From sequence record PV889368.1: a stretch of DNA of 40,015 nt; one strand, written 5' to 3'. Below are positions 1 to 40,015 of this stretch, in pieces. Below the pieces are notes generated by a model, which worked only from the letters and a program-made list of their open reading frames with translations, was not told the origin of the DNA and made no database searches. The translations under genes and the position numbers were made by a program. This DNA is from a phage. Position 1 is the first letter of the stretch; each line of letters begins with the position of its first letter.

Positions 1-1483
1 GGCCTAATCCGACGCTTCCAAAATACTTGTTTCTAATAACCTTGATAGTACCAGCATGACTATAACGACAGTCAAAGCCACCCCCGCTTGCACCAGAGTT
101 CTCTACGTTAGCATACAGTAGGTTATTGTAGTCACCGGAGAATTGGAAACCGCTGTACTCCTGCCCGTTGGAACTAGGATCGCCTAACGCTAAACCTAGA
201 GCCATTACGGAGTAGTTAGTCTTATTAGCCATAATACCTTCCCGACCCCAATTCTCAATTCGGTCAGCGATGAATTGCGAGTAGTGGCATTCATGGAAGA
301 ACAGGGCACCCGCAGATTCAGTACGGAACCCATCGGGGGACAGTACAGGCGTATAGGTACGGCTGAAGTAGTTACTGTGCGCGTACTTAACGTATACATT
401 CACTTTCGGGCATTGTATTAAATACAATAAGTGCGTACCTACGTTAGCGCCGGACTGGCCAGCCTTATTACCGTCCACTTCATTAATATACACCTGAAGA
501 CCCCGCGTGTTGTTGTACGCATACAGGGCCCGGTCAAAGTCAACGCAACCATCTGGTAAGCTCATCTTGCCATAGATGAATACTTCTTTTGCATTAGATA
601 AATTAATATTCTTGGCTACCAAATTAAATCCGGCAGGCACAATTAAAGTCCCTGTTTCATCAACCATAGCCTGAGCAGCAGCAGAAGATTCTACCCCATT
701 TACTGCACCCCAATCTGCAACAGTAGGCTGCTCTTCATTTTTATCATGCTGAGTACGTGGTACCGCGCTATAAGATGACAGTCTTACACCAACTATCCTA
801 TCTCCTAACATTTCGTCTTGAGTTGATGACAGATCTGAACGCAACGATGCGTCGCCAACACTAACCCACGCGCCTAACCCAATGCCACCAGACGTTTCAG
901 GTGTTGAACCAGCAGGAACGTTCTTTGGAAGAGTACCATCCCAGCGGTAATACTCACCATCCTCTTCCCATAGCAGTACCTCGTTCAATTTTGTAACGTT
1001 GAAGCCTTTTTCAAAGGATCGACGGGTCATATAGCCAAGTTTACTGGCTGCCTTGATATTCTCAGCGATTCGTCGTGCTTCGTCCTCACTATCCTTAGCG
1101 TTGCTAGCATAGCTACCAGCAGCATCGGAATATTCCTTCGCTAAGTCAACAGTTTGGTCTCGACCTTCTTCTGCAATATGGATAGCCTGAAGCTCTGCAT
1201 TTGTCAGGTCACTAGCTGTCAACACTGAGCCATTCCTGAAGTCTACCACTAAGTCAGTTCCAGTCTGACGGTGAATACGAACGATGTCGAAACCTGATTG
1301 GTCAACCAACATCTCAATCTTCGTTGGATCAAGGAATCGGTAATCTCTACCAGCTTCCAGTACCCGGTTCAGGGCAGGGTTAGAGCTATTCACCAGCGTA
1401 ACAACAACAAACGTTCTGGCTAGGTAGTCGAACTCAATCCTGTACTGAGTGTTTCCTGAAGGGAATTGTGTAATCGTGGACAT
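1..1483 (-). CDS. Tail fiber/tailspike gp17, 5' portion (N-terminal ~494 aa). The ORF runs off the window start and continues at 39888..39320 through the end overlap, about 683 aa in total
   Basis: ATG at 1483..1481 preceded by AAGGAGG; N-terminus [30 protein letters not shown] resembles the T7 gp17 N-terminal adaptor domain; no stop before the window edge; the frame continues exactly into the 39320..39862 ORF. Confidence 0.85.
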
Positions 1484-1529
1484 TATGCCTCCTTTGTGAT
1501 TTAAATGGAGACCTATGGTAGCGCCTCCC

Positions 1530-1552
1530 GTTTCCTATAGTGATAGTTTAGT
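1530..1552 (-). promoter_or_regulatory. Phage RNAP promoter (phi17-like) upstream of the tail fiber gene
   Basis: Minus strand reads CTAAACTATCACTATAGGAAA; one of 11 copies of the motif, each placed upstream of a gene block. Confidence 0.8.
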
Positions 1553-4500
1553 CCTTGATGTGGATACCTTGCTCCTCAAACGTTCCAAGTAATAGCTTCT
1601 GGGTAATTGGGTCGTTCGGAACCAGTTCACGGAACGTATTATACATCCCGGTCATGTAGTCACGCTCGTTGACACGAGTATCAGCCTTGAGGTAGCCAGC
1701 CAAGTTGTAAGCCGAAGCACCAACGTTAGCAGCATATCCGAAAGCTGGAACCTGCTCCAAGAAGTTACCAACAACATTCATCACAGGGTCGCTTGTAGCT
1801 GCACCATACGCGATGGCACGTTCAGTCTTCTCTGTAGGTGAACGAGGTAGTATAGACGAACGGAGCATCTTAGTGTCCTCATACCCAGCGATGCCACCCA
1901 GAATGTTAGCGACCCCAAGTGGGCCACCCAGATGTGAACTACGGGACAGGGCAGCATACCCAATCATCGTCGGGTTTAGAGCTTGCTTGAGGTAGTCACG
2001 GTCTCGACCATCCTGCATAGCGTAAGCCTTGACGTGCGCCTGAGCCATGTAGTAGATACCAGCTAGACCCATAGACATCACAGTGGACAGAGCAGCGTCC
2101 ATCGCTCGGTTGTTCTTCGTGGCGTTATAGAAGGTTCGCATGGTTCGCCCATTGATGGACTTGATGACGAAGTTCTTAAACTGAAGGACAGTCTTAGCGA
2201 GAGGGCCGTAAGCCTTGGCATCCATGTTAGACAGCTTATAAGGTCGTAGTAACGTTTCATCAGCGATGGTGTCACCCATACGCCACAGGTCCATAGCCCT
2301 TGGGTCCTGACTGAACGCCTTCTTATCCTTGATGGTGTACTTACCGTCTGGACCACGAGTCACTGACTCACGGATTAGGGACTTAATTCCCTTCCACTGC
2401 TCGTCAGAGATACCAGCGGTCTTCAGCCATCGGTCATCGAACTTACGCTTACTACCAGTCAGACTATGCTCCACGATGTCAGACAGGAATCCCTGACGTC
2501 CAGCATCTAACAGGTAGTTGGTCGTACCGTTGAGGACTTTAGTGAACGGAGAGCGTACTGCAAGTTCACCAGTGTAATACTTGGCAGTCCCCAGAGCTGT
2601 AGCCGTACCACGACCGAGGTCACTGTAAGACCGCAGACGGTCGATGACATCCTGTTTAGACGGACGGATTGAGTCATCAAGTTCCTTACCGAAGAGAACA
2701 TTGTGAAGGTCCTTAATCTCTGAGGCGCCTACCTTCTTGTTACGGAAGGCTAGGTCACGGAACATCGGGACTCCATGAAGCAGCGCACGAACGTTACCAC
2801 GAGCCAGCATACCACCAATCTCCGTTAAGTTCTGAACACCCATGTAGGCATTCTTAGCGAAGAACGATAGGTCTGTCATTGTGCGCATCACGGTAGCGAA
2901 GGCTGCATCATCAGCACCATCACGTCGAGCACGACCAGTGAGAATCTTCAAGGTGTCACGTAAGGTAGATACTTCACCTTTCAACTTACCGTCATCCCCA
3001 GCCTTGTTCATCATGGTCTCAACCAAGTCCTTCATGTCCTTCGTGGTTTTGCCTGTACCAGCCATGATAGCAATATCGCCATTAACTCGACGGTTGTAGG
3101 CCGGGACAATCTTGTCCATGTCCCACTCACGAAGGTTGTTGACACTGAAGGTCTGACCGTTAGGCAGGACGATTGACATGTCACTATCGAATAGGTTACG
3201 AGCCTCAAGGAAGCTGTTGTTCTCCAGACCAACCAGACCGTTGATATTCTCTTCCATTACGGATGAGCGTTCGAACTTCTCGGTGTGAGAGATACCGTAA
3301 GCCTTATCGTTGGCGTACTTATCGACCGCAGCCGCAAGTCCTTCTGGAGTCAACGTAGGGTCAGCCTCTGAGAGTGCCTCGTCCACACGTTTCTTGACTT
3401 CAGGTCGAGACGCATAGCTTGTCAACCATGACTTCTTGATGGCCTCCTGCAACGCCTCTGGACTCCCAAGCTCCTTGATATACAGCTCCTTCATCTGTTT
3501 GCTATACACATGAGGGACGTAGGTCCCCTTGAATCGGCTACCCGGAAAGATAGACTTAGCGTCTGGGCGACCAAACATAGCTGGGTTCTCCATCATCTCA
3601 CGCTTGGCGTCAAACTGGTTCTTCAGCAGGTCATAGACTTTCAGTTCTCCCGGAGTCAGTTCAGCCTTAAGGTTTCCGCTACCATCTTCGATAGCCATAG
3701 ACACACGCTGGTAGATGTCCTGACGGAATGCTCCGGAGTCTCGCCAGAATGCTGTCTGGAAGTACGGGTCCTTTAGTGCCTCAGTAACCGCATCGTCGAT
3801 GTCATTGTAGAACCGATGGTCCACTGCACGAAGTCGCTCGAACACGTCTGACGCTGTAGTCCCAATCTTCCCGCTCGCACCTGACTGCATACCTGTGGGG
3901 GAACGCACCAAGTCAGCGGCAAGTCCGCGAATCTCAGGGTTCTCAGACCTCAAGAGCTTCAAGCCAATCTCGGTAAGTCCACCAAGGTTTACACCAGCAG
4001 CAGCACGTTCAGGCTCAATCACCTCGTCGAAGACTTGGCGTGTCTTAGGGTTTAGTGGGTTCTCGCCAATCAGGATTGAACCATCTTCCAGTCGTACACT
4101 ACCCGGCTCATTCGGAACTTCAGCGAACTTAACACCTTGATGACTAAATGTCTGCTCACCTTCCTGAATAGGGAGACGAGACAGGTCCTGACCATCAACG
4201 TTACGAGCGGTCTCACGAGCTTCCAGACGTGTAGCTGGGCCAGCGAACTCATTAGAGTTGCGGCCTAAGGCTCTGCCTAATCCATCAGCGATAGCAGTCA
4301 TACCTGCACCGAATAGAGCACCACCAAGGATAGCTTCAGCCACATGAGCATCACCACCAGCCACTGAGGTACGGGCAACCTCAGACACACCAGATAGTGC
4401 TCCAGCTTGGGCAGCCACTGTGAACATCTTGTTGACCAGTTTACCGCCTTTACCCACCTGTCCAGCGATAGGAACGTAGGTCAGTGGGTCCACGCCAGCA

Positions 4501-5435
4501 CCAATAACACCAGCCGCCAGTTGAGCGCCAGTCCCAGCCTTGGCCTTCTCTTGGTCCAACTTCTGGTTCTCCAGCGCCAAGTTAATAAGCTCGGTCAGGT
4601 TCTGAGGAGAGCCGCCAGTAATGACTCCGTAATACTGAGGCAGAACCCCAGCGTTACGAATCTGGTCCAGCTCCTCGCGAGTCCACTTATGGTTGTTCCA
4701 TCTGGTAGGGTTGAACACGTCACCAATGACATCCAGTGAGTCCTCGGTCTTACCAGCGCGGATAGCAACGCCGACCATAGAGTTCTTCACTTCAGCTTCT
4801 GTAGCCGCACCGAAACCGAACCACGTAGAGCGGCCCTCTCGTTCCTGCATGGTCTCTCCAGTAGCCTTATAGAACATCTCACCGAACGATTCGTTGGGAG
4901 CTTCAGGTGCTTGACCCTCAATGTTAAGACCAGCAGCGGTCGGAAGGTTCTCACCAAGAGCTACTTTAGGTTTAGCCTTGAGTCCTTCCGTGAGTGCGTC
5001 AAATACGTTTGCGCTTACTGGTGGAGTCTTTGGGCTGATACCGTTAAGTGCTCTTTCGACTCCCTTCTGATAGACTTCAGGGTCGTACCGGGAGCCTGTC
5101 TCATGGAAGCCGATAGCTTGCGCCAGAGAAGACAGGGTGTCAGGGTCCGTCAGGTCGAGACTCTGGGTAGCTGGAATACCAGTAGCAGATACAACCGAGT
5201 CGATGTAGGACTTAGTGTCGTTCTCGTTCGGAGGTGCCCAACGGTTGATAATCTTCTCGATGGAGTCATAACCTTGGCGACCGTAGCTTTGAAGGTTTTT
5301 CGCTAATGCTCTTACTCCTGATTCAGGACTATCGAAGATAACGAATGCACCATCATCTCCCACAGCACCTTCCCATTGGTCCTTACTTACCCGGAGGTTA
5401 CCCAGATTATTATTGCGAATACCACGAGTCGCCAT
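1548..5435 (-). CDS. Internal virion protein D (gp16-like, ~1295 aa)
   Basis: Large ORF in the T7 gene 16 position; C-terminal two thirds resemble T7 gp16 from memory (e.g. VRSPTGMQSGASGK, NPAMFG, KGTYVPHVY); start moved to ATG 5435..5433 with AAGGAG RBS. Confidence 0.85.
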   Translation of the reverse strand: MATRGIRNNNLGNLRVSKDQWEGAVGDDGAFVIFDSPESGVRALAKNLQSYGRQGYDSIEKIINRWAPPNENDTKSYIDSVVSATGIPATQSLDLTDPDTLSSLAQAIGFHETGSRYDPEVYQKGVERALNGISPKTPPVSANVFDALTEGLKAKPKVALGENLPTAAGLNIEGQAPEAPNESFGEMFYKATGETMQEREGRSTWFGFGAATEAEVKNSMVGVAIRAGKTEDSLDVIGDVFNPTRWNNHKWTREELDQIRNAGVLPQYYGVITGGSPQNLTELINLALENQKLDQEKAKAGTGAQLAAGVIGAGVDPLTYVPIAGQVGKGGKLVNKMFTVAAQAGALSGVSEVARTSVAGGDAHVAEAILGGALFGAGMTAIADGLGRALGRNSNEFAGPATRLEARETARNVDGQDLSRLPIQEGEQTFSHQGVKFAEVPNEPGSVRLEDGSILIGENPLNPKTRQVFDEVIEPERAAAGVNLGGLTEIGLKLLRSENPEIRGLAADLVRSPTGMQSGASGKIGTTASDVFERLRAVDHRFYNDIDDAVTEALKDPYFQTAFWRDSGAFRQDIYQRVSMAIEDGSGNLKAELTPGELKVYDLLKNQFDAKREMMENPAMFGRPDAKSIFPGSRFKGTYVPHVYSKQMKELYIKELGSPEALQEAIKKSWLTSYASRPEVKKRVDEALSEADPTLTPEGLAAAVDKYANDKAYGISHTEKFERSSVMEENINGLVGLENNSFLEARNLFDSDMSIVLPNGQTFSVNNLREWDMDKIVPAYNRRVNGDIAIMAGTGKTTKDMKDLVETMMNKAGDDGKLKGEVSTLRDTLKILTGRARRDGADDAAFATVMRTMTDLSFFAKNAYMGVQNLTEIGGMLARGNVRALLHGVPMFRDLAFRNKKVGASEIKDLHNVLFGKELDDSIRPSKQDVIDRLRSYSDLGRGTATALGTAKYYTGELAVRSPFTKVLNGTTNYLLDAGRQGFLSDIVEHSLTGSKRKFDDRWLKTAGISDEQWKGIKSLIRESVTRGPDGKYTIKDKKAFSQDPRAMDLWRMGDTIADETLLRPYKLSNMDAKAYGPLAKTVLQFKNFVIKSINGRTMRTFYNATKNNRAMDAALSTVMSMGLAGIYYMAQAHVKAYAMQDGRDRDYLKQALNPTMIGYAALSRSSHLGGPLGVANILGGIAGYEDTKMLRSSILPRSPTEKTERAIAYGAATSDPVMNVVGNFLEQVPAFGYAANVGASAYNLAGYLKADTRVNERDYMTGMYNTFRELVPNDPITQKLLLGTFEEQGIHIKD

Positions 5436-5439
5436 TATG

Positions 5440-7722
5440 TTACTCCTTACCAATTAGTGCGTTTGCGATACCCTCCAGTGATACGTCATTGTACATCCCA
5501 CCGCGCTTCTCGATGTTGGCCTCTCGGTCAGCTCGACGTTTGTCACCAGCAGCTTTAGTCCCGACGATACGCGCTCGCTTGTTGGCGTCACGTTCTGCCT
5601 GAGCATATGCGGCATCTTGTGCCTTCTGCTGTTGTTCGCGGTAGAGTTTACCTACAAGTTCTTTATCGTAGCGAATACGAATAGTCCCTGTAGCGTCTTG
5701 GAGGAAGATAGAGCCGTTCTGTTCAACAACGGACAACTGAGAGTTCACTACCCAAGGGTTGGCCTTAACGAGCTGCTTACGAGCGGTGTCGATAATGTCT
5801 CGACCTACCTGCCACGACTCTGGGTTATCCCCGACCATAAGCTGGTGCTTGGACACCATGCCGATGGACTTACCGTCAGAGCCTTCAGACTGGAACGTTA
5901 CAGTGTTCTCATTCAGCCAGCGTTGAGTCTGCTGAGTTGCAGCGTCAGCGTTACCTGTACGATAGTACCATGAGTCCCAGACCTTACGAGCACTTGAATC
6001 CAGAGACGTTGGGAGGCGAGACAACTGGGTGTTCTTGGAGTCGTTCTTCAACTCCTGCCACGCCTTGTCTGACTCAATGCGCATCTCACGGCTTTGACTT
6101 GCAGCTTGCTTATCAGCTTCAATCATCGTCTGAGGGTCCAGACCCATCTTGTCCATCTGGTCGAACGTAGAGAACAACTGAGCTTGGTCAGGATACAGAG
6201 CAGCAAAACTTGAAGGGTCCTGAGTGTAGGCACGACGAAGAGATTCGAAGCGTTGCATCTTTTCTGGGTCGTACTGCCCACGGATGACCGCAGCTTGCCA
6301 CTCACCAGCAGCGTCCTGAGTCAGAGTCTGGAAGGCATTACGGAACGGACCGTTGTTAGTGTCGGCTCTTAACAATGCCACCTTCTGAGCGTCTTTAGCA
6401 GCCTCAGGGATGTCCATCTGGTCAATCTGCTGTAGCTTGGCAGACGCATAGTTGTTCATGTCTGAACGCTTGAACTCTCCTGTAGCTTCAGAGACCGGAA
6501 GGTCCTCATAGTTGGTGGACACGTTGTCCCCAGCCAGACGTCGCTGATAAACTTGGTCAATGACCAATTGCTTGTTCTGGGTCTGGATTAACTTAGTGTT
6601 CTCCTTCGCCTGTTCAGCTGACTTACGCTTGACCGCTTCCAGTAAGCTGGCTTCGGCATTAATAAGCATCTGACGCTGAGGCGTGAGTTCTTCGCCGGGT
6701 TGAAGCTGGTTGTTCTGCTCCTTGAGTTTTTGAATCTGGGCCAGACCGATGGTTGGGTCATCCTGAAGAATCGCAGACTGGACGCCTAACGCTAAGTCTT
6801 CCTGATACTTAGCCACCAGCTTGTACTCAGTTCCTTGTGCCTCAACAATAGCAGCGTTGAAGACATCAGGTCCTACAATCTCTTCGACTGTAGCGTCCAC
6901 ACCGTTAAGGGTGATTCTCTCGCCTCGTACTTGCTGTAGGAAGTTTGAGCCGCCAGACTTCTGGATTGCGTCACGGACCGTCTGGGTAATGACCTCTCGT
7001 GCTCGCTGGTCCGAAGGGATAGCAGCAGTCGTCAGTCCATCCCGAAGGTAGGCCATGAAGGTCTTTCCAGACTCAGGCGAGCGCATCAAGTCCCCATCGT
7101 TAAGGAACGAGTTCATCTCAATACGAGTGTTCAACATTGCTGTCTCTTCAGACTGCTTGCTGAAATACTTATTGAAGGACCCGTAGATAGCGATGTTTCG
7201 GTCCGTGATGTTATCGTTGAATCCCCGCTGGAAGAACTCGTCGGTAGGGTTGATACCCGCCTCTTCAGCATAGGACTTAGCGGCATCCTGAAGTCGCTGG
7301 TGGCGATACTCTTCCATGTCCTGACGTGTTCGGAACTCACCGTTCTGAATCTTAACGTTAATCTCGTCGTCTACGGCAAAGGCAGCATTACGACCAGTCT
7401 TGACTCGAAGTGCTTCCATAGCGTAAGGGTCATCCTGATACAGCAATGTGCCGTTCTGGATAGCCTCACGTCTTTGCTGAGGTGTCAGCTTACGGATAAT
7501 CTCGTTAGACCTCTCGTCAGCTCTGGTCTTCTCCTCGTCCTTGAACTGCTTGTACAATCCAGTCCCAGACTCAACGAAGTTGGTTAATGCACGAGCCAGA
7601 CCGGAGTCACCAGTCGGAGCCTGAACGTTGGCTGCTTGATAGTTGACGGCGATAGTTTTACCCGGCGCTCTGCCACGACCTATAGTCCGATTAGCAAGAG
7701 CTGATTCAATATTACTAGCCAT
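5440..7722 (-). CDS. Internal core protein C (gp15-like, 760 aa)
   Basis: Large ORF between gp14 and gp16 homologs, ATG with RBS; positional and size match to T7 gp15. Confidence 0.75.
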   Translation of the reverse strand: MASNIESALANRTIGRGRAPGKTIAVNYQAANVQAPTGDSGLARALTNFVESGTGLYKQFKDEEKTRADERSNEIIRKLTPQQRREAIQNGTLLYQDDPYAMEALRVKTGRNAAFAVDDEINVKIQNGEFRTRQDMEEYRHQRLQDAAKSYAEEAGINPTDEFFQRGFNDNITDRNIAIYGSFNKYFSKQSEETAMLNTRIEMNSFLNDGDLMRSPESGKTFMAYLRDGLTTAAIPSDQRAREVITQTVRDAIQKSGGSNFLQQVRGERITLNGVDATVEEIVGPDVFNAAIVEAQGTEYKLVAKYQEDLALGVQSAILQDDPTIGLAQIQKLKEQNNQLQPGEELTPQRQMLINAEASLLEAVKRKSAEQAKENTKLIQTQNKQLVIDQVYQRRLAGDNVSTNYEDLPVSEATGEFKRSDMNNYASAKLQQIDQMDIPEAAKDAQKVALLRADTNNGPFRNAFQTLTQDAAGEWQAAVIRGQYDPEKMQRFESLRRAYTQDPSSFAALYPDQAQLFSTFDQMDKMGLDPQTMIEADKQAASQSREMRIESDKAWQELKNDSKNTQLSRLPTSLDSSARKVWDSWYYRTGNADAATQQTQRWLNENTVTFQSEGSDGKSIGMVSKHQLMVGDNPESWQVGRDIIDTARKQLVKANPWVVNSQLSVVEQNGSIFLQDATGTIRIRYDKELVGKLYREQQQKAQDAAYAQAERDANKRARIVGTKAAGDKRRADREANIEKRGGMYNDVSLEGIANALIGKE

Positions 7723-35852: not shown

Positions 35853-36395
35853 TTACTTGTGGTTTCTATGGGTCCTATCACGCTTAGGGGACCGTCGGTT
35901 TACTGCGTATTCCTTGTGCTTCTCAGTGCGTAGAGCATCAAGCCACACCTCTAGTTCCTCTATTGAATCTGAGGTCTTCGTGAAGCACTTACCTTGTAGG
36001 CGCAACTGAGCGCGATACTTTCCGGTAGGCTTGAAAAAGCTGATACCTTTGGGTAGACCATTAGTCTCGCCACCTCCTGAGTTCCATCTGTTCTCTAATG
36101 CTGTTACTAACCTGTAGTTATCTGGCCTGTCGTCAAGTCTATCACCATTGATATGGTCAACCATCATGCCAGAAGGTATACGACCCACTACTAGGCTGTA
36201 GATGATTCTGGCACGCCTATAGCGGCTACCAAGAACCTTCACGATTGCGTACCCAGACGGATGGACTGAATGTCCCATGACCTCGCCTGGCTTCTTGTTA
36301 GAGCCTTTATAGGGCTTCTTGCACACCAACTCACCATCTACATAAGCATAGTGATTAAAGAGGGCCACCCTGTCGATGGCCTTCTGTTTACTCAT
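35853..36395 (-). CDS. HNH homing endonuclease with an AP2-like DNA-binding domain (180 aa)
   Basis: HNH motif region VDHINGDRLDDRPDNYRLVTALENRWN; GISFFKPTGKYRAQLRLQGK resembles an AP2 domain; ATG with GGAGGA RBS 14 nt after the terminase stop. Confidence 0.8.
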   Translation of the reverse strand: MSKQKAIDRVALFNHYAYVDGELVCKKPYKGSNKKPGEVMGHSVHPSGYAIVKVLGSRYRRARIIYSLVVGRIPSGMMVDHINGDRLDDRPDNYRLVTALENRWNSGGGETNGLPKGISFFKPTGKYRAQLRLQGKCFTKTSDSIEELEVWLDALRTEKHKEYAVNRRSPKRDRTHRNHK

Positions 36396-39174: not shown

Positions 39175-39298
39175 AAAACCTCCAGTTTAAAGCTGGTCGT
39201 CCGTGACCAAAAGTTGTTACCATACGTTGGTCAGCTTGTAGTTAGCCTCTACCTTCACAACCCTCGATGACGACATTCCGTTTTGATGATAGAACTAA

Positions 39299-39312
39299 CC
39301 CTCCGAAGAGGG
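39299..39312 (-). terminator. Stable UUCG-tetraloop hairpin just downstream of the tail fiber stop (possible RNA 3' stability element or weak terminator)
   Basis: Minus strand CCCUC-UUCG-GAGGG; no strong U-tract follows. Confidence 0.3.
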
Positions 39313-39319
39313 AAATAAA

Positions 39320-40015
39320 TTAAACCACCATATACCTAAAACTAGCCCCCGACCCAGCAGGAGAACCAGAAGCTGTAGCTATAGTACAAGAGCCGTTATT
39401 AACTGCTGATACGTAGGCATTTGCCAATGCCCCATTTGCATTAGCGGGTACAAGGATTATATGTGACCAAACATTTATGTTTGCGTCCACTATATTTGCC
39501 GTGGAGTTTCCGGCTAAGCCATTGAAGCCGCGCATATGGAGTGGTTTTTCGGGGTCCAATTGGACGTTTCTAAGTATGAACTTTCCTGTCCCTACGGCGT
39601 TTAGCCTGGTCTTGTTGTTGGCGTTGCTTGTTAAGTCGCCATTCGTTAGCGTTAACGTAGAGTTAAAAGCTGTTACGTGGGCGGAGCCGGGGTCTTTAAC
39701 TATGAAGTTGTCAACACTATTGTTATCAGCGCCGTCTGATTGGTTTATGCCTACACCCGCTGGATTTATTACGGTTGCCGATAGTACACGGTTGTTATTG
39801 CTGTTGGCTGCGAACTGGAAACCGTTAGCAGCGGAGTTAATGCTAATGATACAATCAATCACATTGTACTCGGAAGGTGAACTAGGACGGCCTAATCCGA
39901 CGCTTCCAAAATACTTGTTTCTAATAACCTTGATAGTACCAGCATGACTATAACGACAGTCAAAGCCACCCCCGCTTGCACCAGAGTTCTCTACGTTAGC
40001 ATACAGTAGGTTATT
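39320..40015 (-). CDS. Tail fiber/tailspike gp17, 3' portion (C-terminal Asn/Gly/Ser/Ala/Val-rich beta-helix-like domain); 39889..40015 duplicates 1..127
   Basis: Same frame as the ORF leaving the window at position 1; composition and repeated N.V.N / N-G-S patterns suggest a right-handed beta-helix tailspike domain (inference); stop at 39322..39320. Confidence 0.8.
   Translation of the reverse strand, partial: NNLLYANVENSGASGGGFDCRYSHAGTIKVIRNKYFGSVGLGRPSSPSEYNVIDCIISINSAANGFQFAANSNNNRVLSATVINPAGVGINQSDGADNNSVDNFIVKDPGSAHVTAFNSTLTLTNGDLTSNANNKTRLNAVGTGKFILRNVQLDPEKPLHMRGFNGLAGNSTANIVDANINVWSHIILVPANANGALANAYVSAVNNGSCTIATASGSPAGSGASFRYMVV
39889..40015. repeat. 127-bp exact duplicate of positions 1..127 (circular-assembly overlap, not a biological terminal repeat)
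   Basis: The text at 39889..40015 is identical to 1..127 and lies inside the gp17 coding sequence. Confidence 0.9.

What the first reader, a model, noticed from the sequence alone, without database searches (positions are those of the whole stretch)
39320..40015. Tail fiber with T7-type N-terminal adaptor fused to a beta-helix-like domain, split by the window boundary
The first ~150 residues of gp17 resemble the T7 tail-fiber N-terminal domain, but the remainder is Asn/Gly/Ser/Ala/Val-rich with repetitive short beta-strand-like motifs typical of right-handed beta-helix tailspikes, which often carry polysaccharide depolymerase activity. This points to a capsule- or O-antigen-specific host range. 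The gene is cut by the artificial linear breakpoint: it starts at 1483, leaves the window at position 1 and resumes at 39888.
Basis: partly seen in the sequence, partly recalled or inferred. Interest (0 to 1): 0.55.

Follow-up and report, generated by a model that had tools for sequence, protein, structure and literature searches.

The report
T7-like coliphage tailspike with swapped beta-helix
This is the ordinary receptor-binding tailspike gene of a K1F-like (Kayfunavirus) E. coli phage, with a standard T7-type tail anchor joined to a horizontally acquired sugar-cutting beta-helix domain that no deposited phage carries; the one oddity is an Arg where the domain family always has His.

Summary
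The window is a circularly assembled 39,888-nt T7-like genome: bases 1-127 repeat 39889-40015. Gene 17 runs on the minus strand from 1483 to 1 and continues at 39888 down to 39320, giving 683 aa.

The protein has four parts:
- Residues 6-117: T7 gp17 tail adaptor (Pfam PF03906).
- Residues 115-150: helical neck.
- Residues 227-683: the receptor-binding domain.

DNA homology to other Kayfunaviruses stops at codon ~215 and resumes just past the stop codon. The ~1.4-kb cassette has no full-length match in 50,697 phage records. The same domain does occur on siphovirus, myovirus and P22-like E. coli prophage tailspikes. In the prophages it lies next to an O-antigen-type acetyltransferase, so O-antigen is the likeliest receptor.

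This kind of modular swapping is already published, so this is a new member of a known kind. One curiosity remains. The family-invariant His495, in an AlgE4-like active-site region, is Arg here. That codon sits exactly at the contig break, which suggests a polymorphic site in the sample.

The parts
1..1483 (-). gene 17, 5' part: codons 1-494 plus the first base of codon 495 (ATG at 1483-1481)
39320..39888 (-). gene 17, 3' part: rest of codon 495 through codon 683, plus the stop codon (39320-39322)
39889..40015 (.). 127-nt duplicate of window 1-127: the overlap left by circular assembly, not biological sequence
1488..1494 (-). Shine-Dalgarno AAGGAGG, 4 nt upstream of the ATG
   Evidence: read directly from the sequence
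1133..1468 (-). T7 gp17-type tail adaptor, residues 6-117 (PF03906)
1034..1141 (-). helical neck, residues about 115-150
   Evidence: helices 112-123 and 133-149 in the model of orthologue P0003 (low pLDDT); region conserved with 9vvr_A
851..1048 (-). Tail_spike_N (TSP1/gp66-type) domain, residues 146-211 (PF18668)
823..855 (.). upstream recombination junction, where nucleotide homology to about 230 phage records ends (codons about 210-220, the 'LRSDL' linker)
   Evidence: protein-level break at residue 226
1..805 (-). beta-helix receptor-binding domain, residues 227-494 (cap similar to Sf6 gp14, then rungs)
39611..39888 (-). beta-helix, last rungs, residues 495-587
39887..39889 (-). codon 495, CGT (Arg), where 101 of 101 other family members have His (CAT in the four closest homologues). 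Its middle base, 39888, is the base immediately before the terminal 127-mer
39323..39610 (-). C-terminal beta-sandwich module, residues 588-683. It is separately mosaic: 55-58% identical to P0003/P0004 but 82-98% to P0001/P0002
39299..39312 (-). short hairpin CCCTC-TTCG-GAGGG, 8 nt after the stop; homology to other Kayfunaviruses resumes here

Best explanation
This is the single receptor-binding protein (gp17) of a Kayfunavirus, a K1F-like T7-family podophage of E. coli. By analogy with the closely related solved tail, six trimers attach to the tail through the conserved N-terminal module. That module is a T7-type adaptor, a helical neck and a Tail_spike_N domain. The C-terminal 457 residues are an exchangeable cassette: a right-handed beta-helix followed by a small beta-sandwich. 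The cassette binds, and most probably cleaves, a serotype-specific surface polysaccharide, so the virion can work its way down to the outer membrane before DNA ejection. The cassette was acquired by recombination at the linker after residue about 215 and at the gene's 3' end. The same cassette circulates among podo-, sipho-, myo- and P22-like temperate coliphages. The likeliest substrate is an E. coli O-antigen. The likeliest active centre includes Glu415, Asp471 and the residue at 495. Shown here: gene structure, domain content, fold, mosaic boundaries and distribution. Inferred: trimer and hexamer stoichiometry, enzymatic cleavage, O-antigen as substrate, and the catalytic residues.
For: - **Genome type.** The window is 92-94% identical in nucleotides over more than 80% of 20 kb to Kayfunaviruses such as P762, ZH4 and MT1B1P3.
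- **Gene order.** The order is gp15, gp16, gp17, T7 holin, small terminase, Rz-like protein, large terminase, HNH (orthologous contig).
- **N-terminal module.** Residues 1-226 match the tail spike of PDB 9vvr (phage E1004 tail; 18 chains, i.e. 6 x 3) at E 3.8e-127 and about 87% identity.
- **Fold.**
- **Cassette boundaries.** DNA homology stops at window 823-855 and resumes at about 39229-39302. No phage record covers more than 17% of the domain.
- **Same domain on other chassis.** It occurs on a Kayfunavirus (P0003), a siphovirus (P0001), a multi-tailspike myovirus (P0002) and P22-like prophages at argW with a head-binding domain (P0004, P0006, P0013).
- **O-antigen hint.** In those prophages the tailspike is followed by a 613-aa Acyl_transf_3+SGNH acyltransferase. 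This is the domain layout of OafA/OafB-type O-antigen acetyltransferases (my own knowledge), and it fits a seroconversion module.
- **Selection.** The beta-helix core is under purifying selection, with dN/dS 0.06-0.12 against three homologues.
- **Active centre.** Family-wide conservation is strongest at E415 (96/96), D471 (101/102), G494 and H495. The 'ASGxxFD471' motif aligns with the AlgE4 catalytic motif SGY149GFD152PH154 (catalytic residues per PMC7385640).
- **Precedent.** PMC10408124 documents Kayfunavirus/Lederbergvirus receptor-binding-domain swapping tied to E. coli O-serogroups.
Against: - No enzymatic or host data exist for any member of this domain family, and no solved structure matches beyond the first 54 residues at sequence level.
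- The type phage K1F and the best structural neighbours (APK16, K1 and K5 lyases) act on capsules, not O-antigen.
- P22-like prophages can carry capsule-specific spikes (CUS-3, from memory).
- The window's Arg495 replaces an otherwise universal His in the presumed active centre, so this particular copy might not cleave.
- The AlgE4 motif alignment is weak on sequence alone (domain E 0.5).
Confidence: 0.8

Rival explanations
1. The domain is a capsule (K-antigen) depolymerase rather than an O-antigen enzyme, as in phage K1F itself.
Against: The closest homologues sit in P22-like prophages directly upstream of a membrane Acyl_transf_3+SGNH acyltransferase, an O-antigen seroconversion layout. The N-terminal cap resembles that of the O-antigen endorhamnosidase Sf6 gp14. 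Fold neighbours at 9-15% identity say nothing about substrate.
Confidence: 0.22
2. Arg495 is not the true or dominant sequence. The base at 39888 is a minority allele or an error that the assembler kept when it resolved a bubble, and the functional phage has His495 like all relatives.
For: His occurs in 101 of 101 other family members, as CAT in the four closest homologues against CGT here, a single transition. Position 39888 is the base immediately before the terminal 127-mer. That is where the converging vertex of a SNP bubble lies in a k=127 de Bruijn graph, and a circular contig is cut at such a vertex. The chance that an arbitrary cut falls next to the only change at an invariant site is about 1 in 40,000 (inference).
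Against: The codon is read within contiguous sequence (39320-40015). Assemblers normally keep the better-covered branch. No reads are available. The window has 11 other private substitutions in the domain, so it is a somewhat diverged lineage.
Confidence: 0.35
3. Arg495 is real and this tailspike is catalytically impaired or altered: binding-only, or with changed chemistry. This does not exclude the main explanation of what the gene is.
For: The substitution hits the most conserved position of the family, on the rung after the AlgE4-like 'FD471' motif. The rest of the domain is under strong purifying selection, so the gene is not decaying.
Against: A lytic podophage with a single receptor-binding protein and no cleavage activity would be expected to infect smooth strains poorly (established for P22-type spikes; my own knowledge). 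The artefact or minority-allele reading is simpler.
Confidence: 0.15
4. It is a T7-like fibre with a pyramid/tip domain that binds LPS core or a protein receptor.
For: Only the N-terminal adaptor resembles T7 gp17.
Confidence: 0.02

Closest known systems
Tail spike of phage E1004 (PDB 9vvr) and gp17 of other Kayfunaviruses (K1F endosialidase, EcoDS1, ST31, CLB_P1)
   Same: The N-terminal 220-226 residues (T7 adaptor, neck, Tail_spike_N) are about 87% identical to 9vvr_A. The DNA is about 94% identical to many Kayfunaviruses up to codon about 215. The gene position is the same, and each phage has a single receptor-binding protein.
   Different: The receptor-binding domain is unrelated. K1F carries a beta-propeller endosialidase with a cleaved C-terminal chaperone. 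Here there is a beta-helix plus beta-sandwich and no chaperone domain (no Pfam hit). No deposited phage has this domain.
P22-like (Lederbergvirus) tailspikes: Sf6 gp14, HK620, P22 gp9
   Same: Same fold class and presumed mode of action, an O-antigen-cleaving trimeric beta-helix spike. The first ~60-85 residues of the domain are sequence-similar to the Sf6 gp14 cap (profile E about 1e-10). True homologues of the whole domain (50-86% identity) occur on P22-type head-binding adaptors in E. coli prophages.
   Different: The tail adaptor differs (T7-type instead of the P22 head-binding domain). The beta-helix body has no detectable sequence similarity to the solved spikes. The conserved residues (E415, D471, H495) differ from the Glu/Asp pairs of Sf6, HK620 and P22 (the latter from memory).
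Modular E. coli O-antigen receptor-binding-protein subtypes described in PMC10408124
   Same: A Kayfunavirus anchor carries a horizontally exchanged receptor-binding domain shared with Kaguna-, Justusliebig-like and Lederbergvirus phages. [quoted passage not shown]
   Different: This particular domain has no match among GenBank phages, so it is presumably not one of their 64 subtypes (not checked against their tables). Its serogroup is unknown.
AlgE4 mannuronan C-5 epimerase A-module (PDB 2pyg) and phi29 gp12 preneck appendage (PDB 3gq7)
   Different: AlgE4 Tyr149 and His154 are not conserved in place; the family His lies one rung later. Identity is only 13-15%. The substrate and chemistry of this family are unknown.

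Membership tests
T7-family gp17 tail fibre/tailspike (N-terminal adaptor) | PF03906 N-terminal domain above Pfam's gathering score | tested here: met
   59.2 bits against a cut-off of 25.2, residues 10-114; T7 gp17 PDB chains, E about 1e-15 to 1e-17
T7-family gp17 tail fibre/tailspike (N-terminal adaptor) | Gene lies between internal virion protein gp16 and the holin/small terminase of a T7-type late operon | tested here: met
   ORF order; Pfam on the neighbours gives T7 holin, DNA_Packaging_2, an Rz-like protein (22.4 bits, below Pfam's 25.4 cut-off) and T7 terminase; same order in orthologous contig L004
Genus Kayfunavirus | High nucleotide identity over most of the genome to recognised members | tested here: met
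   92-94% identity over 80-83% of window 20000-40015 to P762, ZH4, 'Kayfunavirus MT1B1P3' and others. Only half of the genome was queried.
Right-handed beta-helix tailspike depolymerases | Right-handed parallel beta-helix fold in the receptor-binding part | tested here: met
Right-handed beta-helix tailspike depolymerases | Homotrimer | not testable with these tools
   Only monomer prediction is available. 9vvr holds 18 copies of the homologous spike, consistent with 6 trimers.
Right-handed beta-helix tailspike depolymerases | Conserved catalytic acidic or basic residues in a groove | tested here: inconclusive
   E415, D471 and H495 are near-invariant in about 100 relatives, and D471 aligns with AlgE4 D152. 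No coordinates were available to check spatial clustering, and the window has R495.
Right-handed beta-helix tailspike depolymerases | Polysaccharide-degrading activity | not testable with these tools
   Needs biochemistry.
Branched two-spike systems (KP32/K11-type primary spike with a docking secondary spike) | A second tailspike gene with a docking peptide in the same genome | tested here: not met
   The 100-aa ORF table shows no second unassigned ORF of tailspike size outside gene 17; only seven of the ORFs were scanned against Pfam. The ORF after the terminase is a 180-aa HNH endonuclease.
Endosialidase-type spikes with a C-terminal intramolecular chaperone (K1F gp17) | Beta-propeller sialidase domain and a Peptidase_S74 chaperone domain | tested here: not met
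   No such Pfam hits at E up to 1. The tblastn match to K1F spans residues 1-384 at 59.6% identity overall, and by my estimate its identities lie mostly in the conserved N-terminal ~226 residues. The protein ends in a small beta-sandwich.

The most novel reading that the evidence does not exclude
The domain belongs to an uncharacterised beta-helix enzyme family of about 86 clusters at 50% identity. Its active centre would be AlgE4-like (Asp471 plus His495), that is, lyase/epimerase-type rather than the usual two-carboxylate hydrolase chemistry of O-antigen spikes. The phage population sampled here would be polymorphic for a His495Arg active-site change, so that cutting and non-cutting (binding-only) spikes coexist.
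Probability: 0.1. Interest if true: 0.55.

Novelty: new member of a known kind. Interest (0 to 1): 0.3.

Why it matters
In practice this adds one more exchangeable E. coli receptor-binding cassette, absent from deposited phages, to the catalogue used for host-range prediction and spike engineering. It also links that cassette to prophage copies from which the target serogroup could be read off. Conceptually it only re-illustrates tailspike modularity across podo-, sipho-, myo- and temperate phages, which is already published. The His495Arg site matters chiefly as a caution before anyone expresses this sequence as a depolymerase. It would be of modest mechanistic interest if it proved real.

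Tried and rejected
- **Structure of the exact joined protein.** I used the 683-aa orthologue P0003 instead, and the window's own last 136 residues.
- **E. coli complete genomes.** A search of 5,426 genomes with the domain DNA gave one weak hit only (68% over 222 nt, a prophage spike 52% identical in protein). No serogroup could be inferred.
- **Codon-495 context.** Scans of IMG/VR and JGI metagenome contigs with N at the variable base found nothing.
- **Source contig.** An exact-product lookup of the window's partial C-terminal product found nothing.
- **Phage E1004.** A paper search returned only noise.
- **T7-like fibre tip.** Rejected.
- **Second spike or branched system.** Rejected.
- **C-terminal chaperone or endosialidase.** Rejected.
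- **Composition.** The GC profile shows no clear compositional island for the cassette: 0.44-0.48 against 0.45-0.53 in the flanks. It was not used as evidence.
- **Plus-strand ORF 39477-39947 (156 aa).** It lies antisense within gene 17 and I regard it as spurious; it was not tested separately.

Full report
**1. Observation**

The two ends of the window repeat each other. Bases 1-127 equal 39889-40015, so the sequence is a circularly assembled unit of 39,888 nt cut at an arbitrary place.

On the minus strand an ORF starts at the ATG at 1483-1481, preceded by AAGGAGG, and runs off position 1. The minus-strand translation of 40015-39320 overlaps it by 42 residues and ends at a stop at 39320-39322. 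Joining 1483..1 to 39888..39320 gives one 683-aa protein. The 180-aa 'GTG ORF' at 39320-39862 in the ORF list is only the tail of this gene.

**2. Genome context**

Window 20000-40015 is 92-94% identical over 80-83% of its length to Kayfunavirus coliphages such as P762, ZH4, PSK1 and 'Kayfunavirus MT1B1P3'.

All genes lie on the minus strand in T7 order. The 760-aa gp15 and the 1301-aa gp16 come first, then this gene. After it come a T7-family holin, the small terminase (DNA_Packaging_2), an Rz-like protein, the T7-type large terminase and an HNH endonuclease. The orthologous metagenomic contig L004 has the same order. No other ORF of tailspike size is left unassigned in the ORF table, so this is the phage's only receptor-binding protein.

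**3. Anatomy of the protein**

- **Residues 6-117.** This is the T7 gp17 N-terminal adaptor (PF03906, E 4.9e-16; T7 gp17 chains, E about 1e-15 to 1e-17).
- **Residues about 115-150.** These are helical.
- **Residues 146-211.**
- **Residues 1-226 as a whole.** They match the tail spike in PDB 9vvr (tail of phage E1004) at E 3.8e-127 and about 87% identity. That entry contains 18 copies of the spike chain, consistent with six trimers.
- **Residues 227-683.** This is the variable part. G, N, A, S and V make up 47% of residues 151-683.

**4. Fold of the variable part**

I therefore modelled P0003, a 683-aa orthologue that is 89.5% identical and gap-free relative to the window protein.

- Residues 250-570 have pLDDT mostly 82-97 and consist of short strands in the three-strand-per-rung pattern.
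- Foldseek lists CBA120 TSP3, Sf6 and HK620.
- Pfam Beta_helix hits 8 of 20 close and 21 of 64 more distant relatives.

**5. Mosaic origin**

Nucleotide homology to about 230 phage records runs from gp16 into gene 17 and stops at window 823-855, that is codons about 210-220 in the 'LRSDL' linker. On the other side, homology to Kayfunaviruses resumes at about 39229-39302, just past the stop and at a small CCCTC-TTCG-GAGGG hairpin. The roughly 1.4-kb cassette between these points has no match in 50,697 phage records beyond its first 60-80 residues.

In the large protein collection it has 20 relatives, carried on four different chassis:
- another Kayfunavirus (P0003);
- a siphovirus with a tape-measure protein and DNA polymerase A (P0001);
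- a myovirus with several spikes (P0002);
- P22-like prophages of E. coli integrated at tRNA-Arg next to yfdC, with the P22 head-binding domain as adaptor (P0004, P0006, P0013).

The cassette is itself mosaic. Residues 247-560 are 95-100% identical to P0004 and P0003. Residues 570-683 are only 55-58% identical to those but 82-98% identical to P0001 and P0002. The beta-helix core is under purifying selection, with dN/dS 0.06-0.12 against three homologues.

**6. Likely receptor and mechanism**

In the prophages the spike gene is followed by a 613-aa Acyl_transf_3+SGNH membrane acyltransferase and the integrase. From my own knowledge, this is the domain layout of OafA/OafB-type O-antigen acetyltransferases and the classic spike-plus-seroconversion arrangement. 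PMC10408124 shows that Kayfunavirus and Lederbergvirus spikes swap receptor-binding domains and that subtypes track E. coli O-serogroups.

I therefore favour an O-antigen-specific depolymerase. A capsule substrate, as in K1F, remains possible at about 0.2.

A profile search of 1.84 billion representative proteins finds 86 clusters at E <= 1e-30. In an alignment of about 110 members the most conserved positions are E415 (96/96), D471 (101/102), G494 (102/102), H495, S444, G450, A465, S466, G517 and S545.

A profile of the wider family detects phi29 gp12 (E 8e-11) and AlgE4 (E 9e-9) in the PDB. It aligns the family motif 'ASGxxFD471' with AlgE4 'SGY149GFD152PH154', with the family 'GH495' on the following rung. 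Tyr149, Asp152, His154 and Asp178 are the AlgE catalytic residues (PMC7385640).

The active centre thus probably involves D471 and H495, with E415 nearby. Whether the chemistry is hydrolytic or lyase-like cannot be decided here.

**7. The one oddity**

The window has Arg (CGT) at 495, where every other family member has His (CAT in the four closest homologues). Of 12 window-private substitutions in the domain, this is the only one at an invariant site.

The changed base, 39888, is the base immediately before the terminal 127-mer. In a k=127 de Bruijn graph that is exactly where the converging vertex of a SNP bubble lies, and a circular contig is cut at a surviving vertex. An arbitrary cut would fall next to this site with a chance of about 1 in 40,000. 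I infer that the sample was polymorphic, or error-prone, at this base.

I cannot tell whether Arg495 is the true majority allele. Scans for other copies found none.

**8. Verdict**

It is a new member of a well-known and already published kind, a modular Kayfunavirus tailspike. It is of modest interest, apart from a cautionary and possibly informative active-site variant.

Noticed in passing
window 1-127 and 39889-40015: Exact 127-nt terminal duplication, the signature of a circular path in a k=127 assembly. The true unit is 39,888 nt. A T7-like genome is linear with its own terminal repeats, so the real genome ends lie elsewhere in the window.
   Followed up: partly
window 39887-39889 (codon 495 of gene 17): Arg (CGT) replaces a His that is present in 101 of 101 other family members. 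The changed base, 39888, is directly adjacent to the assembly overlap, which suggests a SNP bubble and so a within-sample polymorphism or an error.
   Followed up: partly
window 39323-39610 (residues 588-683): The C-terminal beta-sandwich has a different ancestry from the beta-helix body. It is about 59-61% identical in nucleotides to the P0003/P0004 genes but 94% to the P0001 gene, so a second recombination point lies inside the receptor-binding domain near residue 560-570.
   Followed up: yes
window 35853-36395 (minus strand): A 180-aa HNH_3 homing-endonuclease-like gene lies directly downstream of the large terminase. The orthologous contig L004 has it too, plus an additional 149-aa HNH gene between gp15 and gp16 (L004 1619-2068) that is absent from the window, where gp15 and gp16 abut.
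   Followed up: no
L002 9840-11681, L003 7461-9302, L001 7348-9189: In E. coli P22-like prophages at tRNA-Arg/yfdC, the homologous tailspike is followed on the opposite strand by a 613-aa Acyl_transf_3+SGNH acyltransferase and then the integrase. This is a likely O-antigen seroconversion module.
   Followed up: partly
window 39299-39312 (minus strand): Short GC hairpin with a UUCG loop, 8 nt after the gene 17 stop and without a clear T-run. It coincides with the point where homology to other Kayfunaviruses resumes, and it recalls the conserved post-gene terminator motif reported in PMC10408124.
   Followed up: partly
window 1548-5453 (minus strand): The gp16 ORF as listed starts at a TTG that overlaps the end of gp15. 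An in-frame ATG seven codons later (MATRGIRNN...) looks like the more plausible start. Pfam finds no domain in gp16 or gp15 at E <= 0.001, although relatives are annotated as transglycosylase/ejectosome proteins.
   Followed up: no
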